NCBI RefSeq assembly: GCF_009914755.1
Contig: NC_060930.1
Reading direction: 5' to 3' (one strand)
Source of the DNA: the human T2T-CHM13v2.0 reference genome, Homo sapiens
Length of the DNA stretch: 64,000 nt
The position numbers and the translations under genes were made by a program. Below, one piece after another: positions 8,290-14,174 of this stretch. Under the pieces are notes generated by a model. That model saw only the letters and a list, made by a program, of their open reading frames with translations. It was not told where the DNA came from and searched no databases. Within the stretch, counting starts at the first letter, position 1, and the number at the start of each line of letters is the position of its first letter.

Positions 8290-9053
8290 TAAATTTTAAT
8301 TATATTTCTTATTATTTTTCCATTCATTTTCTTTGGATTTTTAATTGTTTTATATCACCTCTAATCTGTCATTTGTTATTACTTTATAAAATGACAGGAG
8401 GGAACCATAGTTGGAAAGAGGCCAATTGTAAACACAGTCCTCTCAAGTATCCCATGAAGAGAACTATTCTACAGGAGTGATATTTCTCCTTCCTATTGAT
8501 TCTTCTAACATTAGTCCTTAGAAAAAGGTACAATATAATCATATATAAGCTTTATAGCCAGATTTGCAGAGTTCGGCATTCAATCTTTCTGCCTCCGACT
8601 TGTCTGTGACTGGTCTGATTAGCTCCTTCCAGAAAAGTTACAGGAGAACAACTTGAACTATTACGGTTGTTGTAAGTGCAGGATTTCTTATAAAACTAAA
8701 TGTACACTCAACCAAATAAGCCAGAAACCCACTTCTAATCTTACCCAAGAAAAATGAAAACTATGTTCACACAAAAAACCTAAACATAAATATTTAGGGC
8801 AGCTTTATATGTAAGTGCTAAAAACTAGGAATAATCCAAGTATCCTCTAACTAGTGACTAGATGCACACACTGTGATAGACCCATGCAATGGACCACTGG
8901 AAAACAATAGAAAGAAAGAATTGCTGGTACAGGAGACAACATGGAGGAAGCTCACAGGTGCACTATACTAAGTGAAAGAAGCTAGACTCAAAAGACTACA
9001 TACTCTATGATTCCATTTAGATGATATTTGGGACAAGAAAGCAGATCAGTGGT

Positions 9054-9382
9054 TGTTGGGGTGATCAGACCCAACACCAGGTCGTGGGGGCAACAAAGTC
9101 TGGCGGAGTTAAAGGAATCAGACAGTTTGAGAAAGTGGGACCAGGGGGCCATCGCGAGTGTGGAGGCTGCGAAGGCCCCGAGCTCTGGGAGCCCACGCTA
9201 TTTATTGGTGCTCAAACAGGTGGTGAGGATGTGGGGGTTAAAAGGAAACAGTGTATCAAGTGAATGAGAAATATACAGCTGCTTGAGATAATGGGAGTGC
9301 TAGAAGCAAGGAGCCAGCAAGTCTAGCAGGTATGGAAGCCCCACCTCAGCTTCTCTCCCAACACTCAGCTTTTCTCCCAACA
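9054..9382 (-). mobile_element. 3' LTR (LTR14A-like, 329 bp)
   Basis: Direct repeat of 13324-13669; minus strand begins TGTTGGGAGAAAAGCTGAG and contains AATAAA; preceded by the PPT. Confidence 0.9.
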
Positions 9383-9401
9383 TGCCCCCCTTCTCTTTTT
9401 T
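9383..9401 (-). other. Retroviral polypurine tract
   Basis: Minus strand AAAAAAGAGAAGGGGGGCA directly abutting the 3' LTR. Confidence 0.9.
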
Positions 9402-9512
9402 GTAAAAACCACCACAGCTATCATTATTATTAGCATAAGGTGGCCTCTTTTTAAAAATTAATTGAGCAAGGCAGTTGCAGGCTGTGCAGCCCTTAATTGC
9501 CAGTTGGTGATC

Positions 9513-9745
9513 CAGCTTCATTTTTCTTAGTCCTTATTCCAAATGGAGTTGCTCTGGTTTGAATGCTTCCTACATATCTCCCCTTTCCCTTTCACAAGAG
9601 GACCCTTAATCCTAGGGGTTGCAGAAGGATGAAGGTCCATCTTCTGCAACTTCTTCATGCTAAATAGGGGTGATGATACTCCTGCCTACCTATTGGGGTC
9701 TCTTGTATTCACGGTAGAGAGCAGTTCAGTCAGAAAGCATTGGTC
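9513..9745 (-). mobile_element. MER41/MER4-group (class I ERV) internal 3' end + PPT + start of U3, embedded in the HERV-K env region
   Basis: 9513-9679 aligns colinearly with 19229-19395 (MER41B U3 start/PPT/internal) in this same window. Extension to about 9745 rests on recalled consensus. Confidence 0.7.
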
Positions 9746-10125
9746 CATTAAGCATCTATAGGTAAAACTTTGGTGCTCCAGCAGTTTCTCAGCGTGGCTC
9801 ATACTGGGGAACCTCATCCATGGTTGGGATCCACGAGTCCTTCTAGTCTCCTGTTCCATGGTTGTACACATCTTGAGGGCACCTACACAGTTTATCTCCT
9901 GCAAAAACACAAGCATACCCTCACCCCATTTTAGTAACTCTACTAAAACAGAAGCAAAAACTTTTGTGGCTGTAGCCAGGAGGCATGCCATTGCTGAAGC
10001 ATTTGTAACTTCTGCCTCTTTGGTTAATTACCGTAGGGTAAAACTTAGCACTGATAATGAGAAACAGGCTTTTTTCTGATTAATAGAAGGCATAGAGAAA
10101 GCAAATTGAGGCTTAAGAGCAATCC

Positions 10126-10630
10126 TTAAACCTTCAATTTGCACTGTACAGGTGGGTCCACTAGATGCTGTGCCTCATGATAGATCTTCAGATGTTTGGT
10201 GGGCACCCACACAGGCACCTGATTGTCACCTGGAGAGACACAAACAAATCCTCTTCCCCAGAAAATTATCTTTCCTTTTTCCCAGCTCTTTGTATGTGCA
10301 TCCCTCCACCATATATCTTGTCCAGCCTTTTTATTTTCCTTTTGTCCTGTCAGGTGTTGTTCAGCTGCAGTCATGGGTTGAAACACAGCATTAACGGCCC
10401 TTAAATCTGTTAACATTCTCCATTTTCCTGATTTTTTTTCTTAATGACAAATACAGGAGAATACCAAAGGGAGAAAGTAGGCTCTGTATGTCCCTTTTGC
10501 AATTATTCCTGCACCAATTCTTGTAAAGCCTCCAGTTTTTCCTGTTTCAGCAGCCATTGCTCCACCTAAACTGGTTTGGCAGTTAGCCAAACAAGAGGAA
10601 TGGGAGCCAGAGGCTCAACAATGGCTGCTC
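10126..10630 (-). pseudogene. pol: HERV-K pol remnant: RT N-terminus fused to the integrase C-terminus
   Basis: ...SPVFVIKKK(fs)...[15 protein letters not shown] joined directly to TAAEQHLTG...WWRD...[19 protein letters not shown]...PVWVP; stop codons upstream. Confidence 0.9.
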
Positions 10631-11395
10631 CTAAAAATGACAGCCCAATCCAGTCTGATCTGTTTGCCCTTTTAATTCTAAAGGTTCTGATTGGCCCTTT
10701 TTATCTTTTCCTAGTCCTTTTCCCATATTTCTTATCATTTGTCTACTATTATTACTATATTGATCCATAGGAATAGATATTTCAGCACCCCATTGTTGCA
10801 ATAGGTCTCTACCCCATAAATTAACAGGAATAGGTGTAATGATAGGTTGGATTGTCCCTTCCTGACCATCCGGCCCTTAACATGGTAAAATCAAGGAACT
10901 CTGAAAAACTTCCTAGGCAGCTCCTACTCCAACAATACCAATGGATGCCTTTTGCTTAGGCCAGTGCTGGGGCCATTGATTTATAGCAATAATAGAGACA
11001 TCAGCTTCAGTATCTACTAGTCCTTCAAAATCTTTTCCCTGAATAGCTACTGTGCAAATAGGTCTTTTGTCCGACACCTGATTAACCCAATACACAGCCT
11101 TTCCTGCTGGATTAGTATTACCAAAGCCTCCTGTTCTTTTCACTGTGCTGCTTCCTAGTTTTAGGTAAGGTAACAGCAACAACTGAGCAATTCTTTCTCC
11201 TGGGGAGGCAGACCATGGAGTCGAGGAACTAATAACTAATTGAATTTCTCCGGTATAATCACAGTCAATTATTCTCATATGTACAGTGACACCTTTTAAA
11301 TTTAGACTAGACCTTCCACGTAATAGATCGACTGTTCCTGAGGGTAAGGGTCCCCTAACTCCTGTGTGGACCTTCTTTGGTGGCTCCCCAGGAAG
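10631..11395 (-). pseudogene. pro: HERV-K pro remnant: dUTPase (N-truncated) + aspartic protease + G-patch
   Basis: LPGEPPKKVHTG...GRSSLNLKG...IIDCDYTGEIQLVISS...KRTGGFGNT (dUTPase); LVDTEADVS (DTG mutated to DTE); NLWGRDLLQQWG; MGKGLGK G-patch; internal stop at 10913. Confidence 0.9.
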
Positions 11396-12978
11396 TGTGA
11401 ACTAAAAGATGAGTTACATAGGTGTTTACAAAACACAACTGGACATTTTCCATTATTCTGGGATAAACCAAAATAAATTTTAAAATTTCATTTGGAGATT
11501 TCAAAGCTGAAAATGCTTTCAGCAAATTCTTAGATCTTAAGAAAATATATATTGTCTATTGTTTGTAAAATAATTTGCCTTTTTGATCTAAAAATTTTAA
11601 TACTTGAATTTAAATAGGTTTTTCTTCTGGAAAAGTTCTTTGGCATTCAAGCAAAATCAATACTTTCAGAGTAGTCACCTGCATCACACTGGAGTGACTG
11701 CTTTAATTTCTAAAGCATCAATTAGTGTAACCCAGGGTACTGATGGCCTTGATACATGATTTAGTCTTGTCATTACAGTGTGTGGAAATCAGGGCTTTAG
11801 GGGGCATCATCTGACCCCATTTCTTTTTACCACAATGGTTCCTGCTACAATGTCATAGGTTTTTCGATTATGCTGAAAAAACAGCAGTGTGATGAAAGCA
11901 GTGAAAAAAGAAGCAATCAAAAAATTCTTGATCAAAGCTCGTATAGTGGACGTTGTAATACTAACATTTGAGGAAGGAATCACTAAAACCCAACTTAGTG
12001 CAATAAGCACTGATGTCACAACTCGAAGCCCCAGCAGGAACTTCCCTGGGGTAGCTCCACCTGCTCTCCAAATGCAAATTATCTCATAGAAACAAACTAA
12101 TAATCTGTATATAAGAGCCACAACCATCATTTTCTGCAAGTCTTCCATTGATGTGCCTTCATCTATTTATTCCAATATGTAATGCATAGCAAAGAGATAT
12201 CCTCTATCCCACTAAGGTGCATAATGCTTAAGACAATGGTTGCCTTTACAAAAAGAGAATAAAGAAATCCACCATCCTTGCCATAAATCTGTGGCCCAAG
12301 GATGGAATAACATATTCTCTCCCTGCCTCTCGCCCAGTCTCGCTCAGGCTTCACCAAGGGGCCATGGATCCTACCCTCCTCACTGGAGCAGCTCAGACGC
12401 CTGCACATGAGAAGCCTGGTGTCCCAGGCCCACGACTGGAGCAAGGGTGCTGATGCCAGCAGCTGCCCACAGGTCAGGCCCCACTGTCCGGAGAGAAGCG
12501 CCACCCGAAGAGAAGCTCTGTGGGGATGGCTGGGGGCTGCAGTAGGCGGGGAAGGTGACCAGGCACCAGGCCAGGCGAGGCAGCAGCAGCCAGACTGCCA
12601 CAGCCAGCCATGCACCCTCCAGGAGCACCCATGGGTGCTCAGCCACACTGGCCTCTCCCACAGTGCCATAGCTTCGGGCACTTTGCAGCCCGCCTGCTCC
12701 TGCAGCCCCACACGGGAGCCAGAGGCCATCTCCCTGCACCTCCTGAGCTTGTGGGGCGGCTTCAATCCATCAGCAGCAGCGGCCCCGAGGCCTGCGGCTG
12801 TGAGCCAGCCCCGGGGGGCCCCCGTGGGGGCATGGGATGGTGGCAGCAGGAGGGCCCCTCAGAAAAGGGATGGGCTTGTGGTCCCCTCTGCCCTCACACA
12901 CCTGGGAGGGTGGCCTCGTGCCCCCTCGGGACCCCCGCCATCATCGCTCCAGCAGCACCCCCCGCACCACCTGCCACT
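11396..12978 (-). pseudogene. FAM8A1: Intronless FAM8A1 pseudogene (short 5' UTR, whole CDS 12941-11807, about 410 nt 3' UTR) inside the provirus
   Basis: ORF 11807-12148 MEDLQKMMVVALIYRLLVCFYEIICIW.AGGATPGKFLLGLRVV...IVAGTIVVKRNGVR is the FAM8A1 RDD-domain C-terminus. Upstream frames give LQEQAGC..PEA, WLWQS, FPAYCSPQPSPQSF, KATIVLSIMHLSGI. Several frameshifts, no introns. Which numbered FAM8A pseudogene it is cannot be told from sequence alone. Confidence 0.95.
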
Positions 12979-13188
12979 GCTCTGTCCCTATACGCCCTTC
13001 CAAAATCTCCTCCAATTATCCCCCATCCATCCAACTCCACAGTTCCCCGCTCCAGGAACCATGGACAAAACTGTTTCACTGCACCAAACTGACAACAAAT
13101 TCTGAGCACTAACTTTTACTCCCCCACTTCATAACAAATGCTTTGAAAAACTTAAATAAGCAGAATGTCTGCTTTCACTTTGTCCCAT
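12979..13188 (-). pseudogene. gag: HERV-K gag 5' remnant (matrix N-terminus)
   Basis: ATG at 13188: MGQSESRHSAYLSFSKHLL*SGGVKVSAQNLLS (fs) FGAVKQFCPWFLERGTVELDGW, similar to HERV-K MA (MGQ..., QFCPWFPEQGT). Confidence 0.88.
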
Positions 13189-13300
13189 TGTCACCCTGGT
13201 TCTTCCCAGGCTCAGCTTCTTTTAGATGTCCTCGGGTGCCCTTTGACAATGCATCCTCAGCTTTCACATGCTCTGGCGTTCCTTCACCAGGGTCTTTGTC

Positions 13301-13319
13301 ACCCCACATTGGGCAGCCA
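13301..13319 (-). promoter_or_regulatory. Primer binding site, tRNA-Lys(CUU)-like
   Basis: TGGCTGCCCAATGTGGGGT, 4 nt after the 5' LTR, versus canonical TGGCGCCCAACGTGGGGC. Confidence 0.8.
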
Positions 13320-13323
13320 GGAA

Positions 13324-13669
13324 TGTTGAGGTGATCAGACCTAACACCAGGTCGTGGGAGCGACGAAGTCCGGTGGAGCCAAAGGAATGAGAAAAAGACA
13401 GTTTAGGAGAGAAAGTGGGACCACGGGGCCATCGCGAGTGTGGAGGCTGGGAAGGCCCCGAGCTCTGGGAGCCCACATTATTTATTGGTGCTCAACAAAC
13501 AAACAGGTGGTGAGGATGTGGGGGTTGATAGGAAACAGTGTATCAAGTGAATGAGAAACATATGGCTGCTTGAGATAATGGGAGTGCTAGAAGCAAGGAG
13601 CCAGCAAGTCTAGCGGATGTGCAAGCCCTTCCTCAGCTTCTCTCCCAACACTCAGCTTTTCTCCCAACA
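13324..13669 (-). mobile_element. 5' LTR (LTR14A-like, 346 bp)
   Basis: Direct repeat of 9054-9382; followed on the minus strand by the PBS and gag. Confidence 0.9.
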
Positions 13670-13736
13670 AGTGGTTGCCAGGAGCCGGGTATTGGGGGAG
13701 AAGTTGACTACAAAAGGGCATGAAAAATCTTTTTGG

Positions 13737-14026
13737 GGCCAGGTGTGGTTGCTCACACTCCAGCACTTTGGGAGGCTGAGGCAGGCAGATCACTTGATGT
13801 CAGAAATTCAAGACCAGCCTGTCCAACATGGTGAAACCCCGTCTCTACTAAAAATACAGAAATTAGCCAGGTGTGTTGGCAGGTGCCTCTAGTTACAGCT
13901 ACTCAGGAGGCTGAGGCAGGAGAATTGCTTCAACCCAGGAGGTGGAGGTTACAGTGAGCCGAGATTGAGGCACTGCACTCCAGTTTGAGCAATAAGAGCA
14001 AAACCCCATCTCAAAAAAAAGGAAAA
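13737..14026 (+). mobile_element. Alu (AluS)
   Basis: Dimeric Alu with A tail, inserted in the L1M relic. Confidence 0.93.
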
Positions 14027-14174
14027 AATAATTTTTTGGATCCAGGGAAATATTCTACATCTTACTGGTGTGGTAGTCACCTGGCTGCATGCATTCATGA
14101 AAACTCAGAACTGTACACAAAAATGGTAAATCACACTGCATGTAAATTACACTTTAATAAAAAAAAATTTAAGG

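What the first reader, a model, noticed from the sequence alone, without database searches (positions are those of the whole stretch)
9048..13675. Endogenous retrovirus carrying a captured cellular mRNA (FAM8A1) as a fully integrated provirus
Seen: LTR-PBS-gag(MA)-[spliced FAM8A1, sense orientation]-dUTPase/pro-pol(deleted)-PPT-LTR, with a 6-bp integrase-type TSD. The insert has no poly(A) tail and no TSD of its own, and it replaces CA/NC and the start of dUTPase. That points to capture by RT template switching between co-packaged RNAs, as in acutely transforming retroviruses, not to an L1-made pseudogene landing in an ERV. Known: FAM8A1 transduction by a HERV-K was reported (Jamain et al. 2001), so the phenomenon is described, though germ-line retroviral gene transduction is rare. 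The element lacks functional gag/pol/env and must have been mobilised in trans.
Basis: partly seen in the sequence, partly recalled or inferred. Interest (0 to 1): 0.75.

Follow-up and report, generated by a model that had tools for sequence, protein, structure and literature searches.

The report
Old provirus carrying captured FAM8A1 mRNA
This is a roughly 20-30-million-year-old defective HERV-K14 retrovirus copy that carries a spliced copy of the human gene FAM8A1 in place of most of its gag gene; it is a real and neat example of gene capture by a germ-line retrovirus, but this very locus is already described in print.

Summary
Window 9054-13669 (minus strand) is a 4.6-kb HERV-K14 (HML-1) provirus. 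It has 329/346-bp LTRs that differ at 7.6% of sites, a perfect 6-bp target duplication (AGTGGT), a PBS and a PPT.

A fully spliced FAM8A1 copy (11385-12985) lies between the first ~70 gag codons (MA) and the dUTPase/protease frame. All four introns are gone and it runs from the 5'UTR to mid-3'UTR. It is in sense orientation, with no poly(A) and no flanking repeat of its own. It replaces 1.46 kb that in insert-free relatives holds the rest of MA, CA and NC.

Both joints show microhomology (12 nt, and 7-9 nt). All four processed FAM8A1 copies in this genome (chr6, chr2, chr11, chrY) lie in the same virus, with the same joints, at different sites. That means one capture followed by spread in trans.

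It is already in print: Jamain 2001 for the phenomenon, and Tan 2016, Table S8, for this very locus.

- The gag frame runs in frame into the FAM8A1 start codon.
- The 2.06-kb pol deletion is private to this copy.
- RefSeq's pseudogene span stops ~300 bp short.

Interest is low.

The parts
9048..9053 (.). Target-site duplication, left copy (AGTGGT)
   Evidence: Read directly. Identical to 13670-13675.
9054..9382 (-). 3' LTR (329 bp, TG...CA)
   Evidence: Direct repeat of 13324-13669. Differs at 25 of 329 aligned sites.
9383..9401 (-). Polypurine tract abutting the 3' LTR
   Evidence: The sense strand reads AAAAAAGAGAAGGGGGGCA just before the LTR. Conserved in the chr11, chrX and chr1 copies.
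9402..10125 (-). 3' internal region of unknown content (no env domain recognised)
   Evidence: About 88-90% identical to the same stretch of other family copies. No Pfam match at or above a curated cut-off (best E 0.08 and 0.23) for its ORFs, searched up to E = 10.
10183..10308 (-). Integrase C-terminal DNA-binding domain remnant
   Evidence: Pfam IN_DBD_C, E = 9e-8, residues 45-86 of ORF 10126-10440.
10372..10381 (-). Joint of a private 2,061-bp pol deletion (RT, RNase H and most of integrase gone)
   Evidence: The chrX copy has 2,061 extra bases here. CATGGGTT occurs at both ends of the deleted stretch. The chr11, chr2, chrY and chr1 copies each have different deletions.
10382..10630 (-). 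Start of pol, with a short RT N-terminal stub
   Evidence: ORF 10126-10440 begins [17 protein letters not shown], then jumps to the integrase C-terminus. That this motif belongs to RT is my recollection; no Pfam RT hit was obtained.
10640..11071 (-). Protease (RVP, in two frames) and G-patch
   Evidence: Pfam RVP E = 1.1e-15 and 4.5e-7; G-patch E = 1.7e-7. The frame is broken between 10876 and 10913.
11144..11380 (-). dUTPase domain of the pro frame
   Evidence: Pfam dUTPase E = 2.1e-12, profile positions 31-111 of 129.
11385..11396 (-). 3' joint: 12-nt microhomology (plus strand TCCCCAGGAAGT) shared by the virus and the FAM8A1 3'UTR
   Evidence: Three-way comparison of the window, the parent gene and insert-free copies.
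11385..12985 (-). Spliced FAM8A1 copy: exon 5 11385-11951, exon 4 11950-12084, exon 3 12079-12202, exon 2 12202-12325, exon 1 12318-12985 (BLAST bounds overlap by a few nt)
   Evidence: Matches to chr6:17472569-17480952. Pfam RDD, E = 2.7e-8. Many frame-breaking deletions.
12977..12985 (-). 5' joint: microhomology. Sense GGAGCAG is exact; up to 9 nt in the less-decayed copies
   Evidence: Alignment of the 4 chimeric copies, the parent and 2 insert-free copies.
12986..13188 (-). gag start: about 70 codons of matrix (MA), with one internal frameshift and a stop
   Evidence: Pfam Gag_p10 E = 1.4e-5, profile positions 29-58 of 85. The ATG at 13188 was read.
13302..13319 (-). Primer-binding site (sense TGGCTGCCCAATGTGGGG)
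   Evidence: Lies 4 nt after the 5' LTR and is conserved in the chr11, chrX and chr1 copies. Assignment to tRNA-Lys is recalled, not tested.
13324..13669 (-). 5' LTR (346 bp)
13670..13675 (.). Target-site duplication, right copy (AGTGGT)

Best explanation
A HERV-K14 (HML-1, betaretrovirus-like) genome and a mature FAM8A1 mRNA were reverse-transcribed into one chimeric cDNA in the germ line of an Old World primate ancestor.

Inferred mechanism: during minus-strand synthesis, reverse transcriptase copying the viral pro region met a 12-nt stretch that is identical in the FAM8A1 3'UTR and jumped to the mRNA. It copied the mRNA up to its 5'UTR. It then jumped back to viral RNA in gag-MA at a 7-9-nt identity.

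The product kept both LTRs, the PBS, the leader, the first ~70 gag codons, pro, pol and the PPT. It lost the rest of MA, CA and NC. In it, gag-MA is joined in frame to the whole FAM8A1 coding sequence.

The chimera could not make particles itself. Its RNA was packaged and reverse-transcribed by proteins of intact family members, and it integrated at four or more sites. The copy in this window is one of these integrations, made by integrase with a 6-bp duplication.

Since then this copy has decayed as a dead pseudogene. It shows frameshifts, loss of CpGs and a private 2-kb pol deletion.

Shown: the anatomy, the spliced origin, the substitution of viral sequence, the microhomologies, the shared joints and the separate integration sites.
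Inferred: co-packaging, the order of the two jumps, and the helper.
For: Anatomy and target duplication:
- See for the LTRs, TSD, PBS, PPT and Pfam domains.

Spliced origin:
- The insert matches all 5 exons of the parent gene, with the 4 introns missing, and splice sites sit at the exon ends in the parent.

Substitution of viral sequence:
- The insert-free chrX, chr1 and chr15 copies carry about 1,460 bp where the insert sits.
- In the chrX copy that stretch gives Pfam Gag_p10 (full), Gag_p24, Gag_p24_C and zf-CCHC_5.

No L1 marks:
- There is no poly(A) and no flanking repeat.
- The parental 3'UTR continues past the joint.

Microhomology:
- 12 nt at the 3' joint and 7-9 nt at the 5' joint.
- In 1,000,000 random joints per exon, P(>=12) = 6e-6 and P(>=7) = 2.9e-4.

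One capture, several integrations:
- 3' joint search: of 40 scored matches, 4 (this locus, chr11, chr2, chrY) span the joint, 1 is the parent gene and 35 match only the viral side.
- 5' joint search: of 30 matches, the same four loci span the joint, 1 is the parent and 24 are viral only.
- Searches with three parts of the insert find only these 4 processed copies plus the parent.
- Similarity between copies stops at the LTR ends, and the flanks differ.
- The exon-5 tree is star-like: 11-21 private changes per copy and 4 shared by all.

In-frame fusion:
- 35 nt of 5'UTR plus 1 nt make 12 stop-free codons between the gag frame and the FAM8A1 ATG.
- In this window's copy the frame is still open from the Pfam-matched MA part through to just past the ATG.

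Age:
- LTR K2P is 0.081, which gives 19-31 Myr at 0.13-0.21 %/Myr.
- This fits a family age of about 39 Myr quoted in Table 1 of PMC3778440 (passage seen).

Print:
- Tan 2016, Table S8 row 51, lists this locus as LTR-mediated: HERVK14 flanks, microsimilarity 12, no poly(A), no TSD.
Against: - A tree of the viral pro region does not place the four FAM8A1-bearing copies in one supported clade. It used 18 copies; 3 of 14 extra loci were dropped because their match was under 700 nt. Internal branches are <=0.006 and the four copies are scattered among insert-free copies. This is neutral, not contradictory, but the single origin rests on the joints alone.
- Only 2 of the 4 copies (this one and chr11) keep both LTRs. 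The chr11 duplication is degenerate (AAGAAT/AAGGAC, 4 of 6). chr2 lacks its 5' LTR and chrY is cut off within MA. Integrase-type insertion is therefore shown cleanly only for this locus.
- Two template jumps cannot be told apart here from a read-through or deletion origin of the 5' joint.
- No other primate genome could be searched, so the age and the absence of an insert-free provirus at the orthologous site are not tested.
- The PBS-tRNA assignment and the RT-stub label are recalled.
Confidence: 0.9

Rival explanations
1. Classic read-through capture. A HERV-K14 provirus integrated just upstream of FAM8A1. A genomic deletion or read-through transcript fused gag-MA to the FAM8A1 5'UTR, and splicing removed the introns. 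Only the 3' joint was then made by a reverse-transcriptase jump onto a co-packaged helper genome.
For: This is the textbook route for oncogene capture (Swain and Coffin 1992, as cited in the PMC5131818 passage seen). The 5' joint has the shorter microhomology (7-9 nt). The sense orientation and the in-frame gag fusion are what such a route tends to give.
Against: No HERV-K14 sequence was found within the parent gene, 20 kb upstream of it or 10 kb downstream. A provirus allele that was never fixed would leave no trace, however. The 5' joint lies inside exon 1, not at a splice acceptor. Its microhomology is itself improbable at a random joint (P = 2.9e-4).
Confidence: 0.08
2. An ordinary L1-made processed pseudogene of FAM8A1 landed in a HERV-K14 provirus. 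The composite was then copied.
For: L1 makes nearly all human processed pseudogenes (PMC5131818, passage seen). RefSeq lists the locus simply as a pseudogene.
Against: There is no poly(A) and no flanking duplication around the insert. The insert is truncated at the 3' end inside the UTR and is nearly complete at the 5' end. It replaces 1,460 bp of virus instead of interrupting it, and both joints show microhomology. By contrast, a true L1 insertion in the chr2 copy shows a T-run and a duplicated AATTGGAAGAGATTTTT on both sides.
Confidence: 0.01
3. The four copies arose by segmental duplication or gene conversion of one locus, not by reinfection or retrotransposition.
For: Two of the four copies lack a 5' LTR, so for them integration cannot be shown directly.
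Against: Similarity ends exactly at the LTR termini in all comparisons, and the flanks are unrelated. The copies lie on four chromosomes. This copy has its own perfect 6-bp duplication.
Confidence: 0.01

Closest known systems
FAM8A1 transduction by a HERV-K provirus (Jamain et al. 2001, Genomics 78:38; not held, seen only through citations)
   Same: This is the same phenomenon and, by all signs, the same set of loci. PMC5131818 summarises it as HERV-K capturing FAM8A1 with microsimilarity at the fusion points, giving an untranscribed processed pseudogene.
   Different: Nothing of substance. I could not read the paper, so I cannot say whether it reports the in-frame gag-FAM8A1 junction, the copy-specific pol deletions or the count of four copies.
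LTR-mediated retroposition (Tan et al. 2016, PMC5131818; passages and Suppl. Table S8 seen)
   Same: Table S8 row 51 lists a FAM8A1 retrocopy on chr6 (6:134924279-134925855 in an older assembly, 1,577 bp) with HERVK14 flanks, microsimilarity 12, no poly(A) and no TSD. Row 52 lists the chr11 copy with 12 and 8. Only one chr6 retrocopy exists in this genome, so it is this locus. Their double template-switch model is the one adopted here.
   Different: For this copy they score the second joint as -17, meaning 17 unaligned bases. Comparison with the three sister copies shows a 7-9-nt microhomology there that local decay has obscured. The two rows found cover the chr6 and chr11 copies; that search (for 'FAM8A1' and 'HERVK') would miss rows worded otherwise, and one supplementary file could not be searched.
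Acutely transforming retroviruses with gag-onc fusions
   Same: A spliced cellular mRNA in sense orientation replaces structural genes, is fused in frame to the N-terminal part of gag, and the genome is defective and helper-dependent. The comparison itself is from general knowledge.
   Different: This one is fixed in the germ line and amplified to several loci. There is no evidence that the captured gene gave any growth or replication advantage. The host gene is an ER-membrane ERAD cofactor (PMC6987440, passage seen), not a growth regulator.
HERV-K14I proviruses carrying TRPC6 mRNA portions (Flockerzi et al. 2005, J Virol 79:2941; not held, abstract recalled; title seen)
   Same: The same virus family mobilising another cellular transcript. 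Uniform deletions and lack of env in most members would fit the unassigned 9402-10125 stretch.
   Different: A different captured gene. The details are recalled and were not checked here.

Membership tests
HERV-K14 / HML-1 provirus (betaretrovirus-like ERV) | Paired LTRs with TG...CA ends, flanked by a short (5-6 bp) target duplication | tested here: met
   LTRs at 9054-9382 and 13324-13669, 92.4% identical. AGTGGT lies on both sides.
HERV-K14 / HML-1 provirus (betaretrovirus-like ERV) | PBS after the 5' LTR complementary to tRNA-Lys, and a PPT before the 3' LTR | tested here: inconclusive
   An 18-nt PBS-like motif and a purine tract are present and conserved across copies. The match to tRNA-Lys is recalled and was not compared with a tRNA gene.
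HERV-K14 / HML-1 provirus (betaretrovirus-like ERV) | Betaretroviral gene content: dUTPase in the pro frame, protease followed by a G-patch, Gag_p10-type matrix | tested here: met
   Pfam dUTPase, RVP, G-patch and Gag_p10. That this set marks betaretroviruses is from general knowledge.
HERV-K14 / HML-1 provirus (betaretrovirus-like ERV) | Nucleotide similarity over LTRs and internal parts to other members of the family | tested here: met
   83-92% identity to the chrX, chr1 and chr15 copies over all viral parts. The name HERVK14 comes from Tan 2016, Table S8. No repeat library was on hand to name the family myself.
LTR-mediated (template-switch) retrocopy | An intronless copy of a cellular mRNA inside an LTR element, replacing internal element sequence | tested here: met
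   4 introns removed. 1,460 bp of gag-pro replaced.
LTR-mediated (template-switch) retrocopy | No poly(A) tail and no target duplication around the retrocopy; 3' truncation | tested here: met
LTR-mediated (template-switch) retrocopy | Microsimilarity between mRNA and element at the fusion points beyond chance | tested here: met
   12 nt and 7-9 nt. Simulated P = 6e-6 and 2.9e-4.
LTR-mediated (template-switch) retrocopy | Both LTRs present, and the chimera can go through further rounds of retroposition | tested here: met
   Both LTRs are present here and on chr11. The same joints occur at 4 loci with different flanks.
FAM8A1 processed pseudogene | Collinear match to all FAM8A1 exons, a recognisable RDD domain, and a disrupted reading frame | tested here: met
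   Exon matches show 3.0-6.5% substitutions in exons 2-5 and 20.7% in exon 1. Exon 1 alone has 8 deletions, 6 of them (1, 1, 17, 1, 4 and 1 nt) not multiples of three, and exons 2-5 have further frame-breaking indels. Pfam RDD E = 2.7e-8.

The most novel reading that the evidence does not exclude
The chimera was not a passive passenger. It encoded a myristoylation-competent Gag(MA)-FAM8A1 fusion protein, in frame and with the whole FAM8A1 coding sequence. Expression of this fusion, or the structure of the FAM8A1 RNA, helped this defective genome compete for helper particles in germ cells. That would explain why one capture reached four or more fixed copies in a family of about 68 proviruses (the number is quoted in PMC3778440, Table 1). 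It would be a germ-line counterpart of a gag-onc virus whose cargo was selected for transmission rather than for cell growth.
Probability: 0.07. Interest if true: 0.55.

Novelty: already known. Interest (0 to 1): 0.15.

Why it matters
This is one of very few human examples of a germ-line retrovirus capturing a host mRNA and then spreading it. Tan 2016 found three LTR-mediated retrocopies in human, two of them FAM8A1 copies. It shows that the template-switch route known from transforming retroviruses and from fly or yeast LTR elements also operated in primate germ lines.

The scan gains little from it. The case and the locus are published.

Tried and rejected
- Env remnant. I looked for env domains in 9402-10125. 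Pfam gave nothing at E <= 0.01 and only noise at E <= 10. A first attempt that translated whole frames was rejected because of stop codons. I then sent the stop-free ORFs.
- Clade test. I tested whether the four FAM8A1-bearing copies form a clade in their viral pro region. They do not: the tree is star-like with weak supports.
- Read-through route. I looked for a HERV-K14 remnant around the parental gene. None was found in 40 kb.
- chr11 duplication. I tried to confirm a clean target duplication for the chr11 copy. Only 4 of 6 positions match.
- Missing 5' LTRs. I searched for the 5' LTRs of the chr2 and chrY copies up to 9.5 kb further out. They are absent.
- Papers. Jamain 2001 and Flockerzi 2005 are not held.
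- L1-made pseudogene and segmental duplication were considered and rejected; see the rival explanations.

Full report
**1. What is in the sequence**

Two direct repeats, 9054-9382 and 13324-13669, bound the feature. They differ at 25 of 329 aligned sites, plus 17 gap columns (K2P 0.081). Each begins TG and ends CA. The hexamer AGTGGT lies directly outside both, at 9048-9053 and 13670-13675.

The element reads on the minus strand. Four bases after the right-hand (5') LTR lies an 18-nt primer-binding-site-like motif (13302-13319). A purine tract (9383-9401) abuts the left-hand (3') LTR. Both are conserved in sister copies.

Pfam places the following on minus-strand frames:
- Gag_p10 in 12894-13115
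- RDD in 11807-12166
- dUTPase and retroviral protease in 10913-11401
- protease C-terminus and G-patch in 10631-10876
- the integrase C-terminal domain in 10126-10440

**2. The insert is a mature FAM8A1 mRNA**

A search of the window's own genome with 11400-12970 returns 10 matches. They are the window itself, three other full-length copies (chrY, chr2, chr11), and six pieces that are the exons of one gene at chr6:17472569-17480952.

BLAST against that locus gives five collinear blocks:
- exon 5, 11385-11951
- exon 4, 11950-12084
- exon 3, 12079-12202
- exon 2, 12202-12325
- exon 1, 12318-12985

Introns of 1.4-2.2 kb are missing, and splice-site dinucleotides sit at the block ends in the parent. 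The insert has the same orientation as the virus.

The insert starts 42 nt upstream of the parental ATG, counting the shared 7 nt. It ends inside the 3'UTR at a point where the parent simply continues, with no A-run and no nearby polyadenylation hexamer. No A/T tract and no direct repeat flank it.

The copy is dead. Exon 1 alone has 8 deletions, 6 of them not multiples of three. Exon 1 is 20.7% diverged, with only 14 of 82 parental CpGs kept, while exons 2-5 are 3.0-6.5% diverged. The RefSeq pseudogene span (to 12679) misses the decayed 5' 300 bp.

**3. It replaces viral sequence**

Insert-free relatives on chrX, chr1 and chr15 align to the window up to 11395/11396 and again from 12977/12978. 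Between these points they carry about 1,460 bp of their own sequence.

In the chrX copy that stretch gives Pfam Gag_p10 (whole domain), Gag_p24, Gag_p24_C and the gag zinc finger. So the rest of MA, CA and NC were lost.

Pfam aligns the dUTPase model from profile position 31 both here and in the insert-free copy.

**4. The joints**

At the 3' joint the window, the parent gene and the insert-free copies share 12 identical bases (11385-11396), and each pair diverges beyond them.

At the 5' joint the shared stretch is 7 nt exact (sense GGAGCAG). It reaches up to 9 nt in the less-decayed sister copies.

In one million random joints between the same sequences, P(>=12 nt) was 6e-6 and P(>=7 nt) was 2.9e-4.

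**5. One capture, several integrations**

- With 301 bases across the 3' joint, 40 matches were scored. Four span the joint (this locus, chr11, chr2, chrY), one is the parent gene, and 35 match only the viral half.
- Across the 5' joint, of 30 matches the same four loci span it (chr2 in two pieces because of an L1 insertion), one is the parent and 24 are viral only.
- Searches with two further parts of the insert find no other processed copy.

So 4 of 4 FAM8A1 retrocopies in this assembly sit in this virus with the same joints. Similarity between the loci ends at the LTR termini, and the flanks are unrelated.

The exon-5 alignment is star-like: 11-21 private substitutions per copy and 4 shared by all. 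This fits a short burst of copying.

Results that do not help:
- A tree of the viral pro region does not group the four chimeric copies. It used 18 copies, and 3 short matches were dropped. Supports are weak and internal branches are near zero.
- Only this copy and chr11 keep both LTRs.
- The chr11 duplication is degenerate (4 of 6).
- chr2 lacks its 5' LTR, and chrY is cut off in MA.

**6. Other features of this copy**

Relative to the chrX copy it lacks 2,061 bp of pol, between two occurrences of CATGGGTT. The chr11, chr2, chrY and chr1 copies each have a different pol deletion. The deletion is therefore private and arose later, or in the replication round that made this copy.

The 724 bp at 9402-10125 are conserved in the family. 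They have no Pfam match at or above a curated cut-off, the best E-values being 0.08 and 0.23.

**7. Mechanism**

The anatomy fits a double, microhomology-guided template switch of reverse transcriptase between a viral genome and a co-packaged FAM8A1 mRNA. That gives a helper-dependent chimera that was then packaged in trans and integrated by integrase. This is the model of Tan et al. 2016 (PMC5131818, passages seen).

Co-packaging, the order of the jumps and the helper are inferred.

The classic alternative has an upstream provirus with read-through or deletion making the 5' joint. It cannot be excluded. It gets no support from the 40 kb around the parent gene, which holds no HERV-K14 sequence.

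An L1 origin and segmental duplication are contradicted (sections 2-5). The true L1 insertion in the chr2 copy, with its T-run and flanking duplication, shows what an L1 insertion would look like.

One detail may or may not be in print. The gag frame continues through 12 stop-free codons of 5'UTR into the FAM8A1 ATG. The chimera therefore encoded a Gag(MA)-FAM8A1 fusion, as in gag-onc viruses. In this window the frame is still open across the joint. Being in frame without a stop has roughly a one-in-five chance, so this is an observation and not evidence of selection.

**8. Age**

LTR divergence gives 19-31 Myr at 0.13-0.21 %/Myr per lineage. The chr11 copy gives 32-52 Myr. Two insert-free copies give about 18-30 Myr. 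The family is quoted at about 39 Myr in Table 1 of PMC3778440.

**9. Comparison with what is known**

The phenomenon is Jamain et al. 2001. That paper is not held; it was seen only through citations.

Tan et al. 2016, Suppl. Table S8, lists a 1,577-bp FAM8A1 retrocopy on chr6 with HERVK14 flanks, microsimilarity '12, -17', no poly(A) and no TSD. It also lists the chr11 copy with '12, 8'. As there is only one chr6 retrocopy, that is this locus.

My 7-9 nt at the second joint refines their '-17', which reflects local decay in this copy.

Flockerzi et al. 2005 is not held and its abstract is recalled. It described the family and its mobilisation of TRPC6 transcripts. The supplements of Tan 2016 were searched in 9 files, and one file could not be searched.

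Two full-text searches for FAM8A1/FAM8A with 'endogenous retrovirus' or HERV found only 3 and 2 papers. None deals with the fusion frame.

**10. Verdict**

Novelty: already known. Interest is low. The report's value is a clean confirmation on a complete assembly plus minor refinements.

Noticed in passing
window 12680-12985: The RefSeq FAM8A6P span ends at 12679, but homology to FAM8A1 exon 1 continues to 12985. This part is 20.7% diverged, and only 14 of 82 parental CpGs are kept. CpG decay probably hid it from the annotators.
   Followed up: yes
window 10372-10381: The 2,061-bp pol deletion is private to this copy and is bounded by an 8-nt repeat (CATGGGTT) in an undeleted relative. Every other copy examined (chr11, chr2, chrY, chr1) has a different pol deletion of 1.2-1.4 kb.
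   Followed up: partly
window 12894-13115 (minus strand): One open frame still runs from the Pfam-matched matrix part of gag across the joint into the FAM8A1 start codon. The ancestral junction gives 12 stop-free codons, that is, an in-frame Gag(MA)-FAM8A1 fusion.
   Followed up: yes
L032 2815-4578 (chr2 sister copy): An L1 3'-end fragment with a T-run sits inside the matrix part of the chr2 chimeric copy, flanked by a duplicated AATTGGAAGAGATTTTT. This is a textbook L1 insertion and a useful contrast to the FAM8A1 insert. That copy also lacks its 5' LTR.
   Followed up: partly
L033/L040 (chrY sister copy): The chrY copy is cut off within matrix, with no 5' LTR within 9.5 kb. It carries two extra stretches of about 0.7 and 0.8 kb in pol that do not match the chrX reference copy. 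It is also the most diverged of the four.
   Followed up: no
window 11015-11045 (minus strand): The protease active-site region reads LVDTEAD in this copy, in place of the D-T/S-G motif expected from general knowledge. The protease frame is split between 10876 and 10913.
   Followed up: no
window 13730-14042: An Alu element lies 55 bp beyond the right target duplication. It matched Alus in several fetched loci. It is unrelated to the provirus.
   Followed up: no
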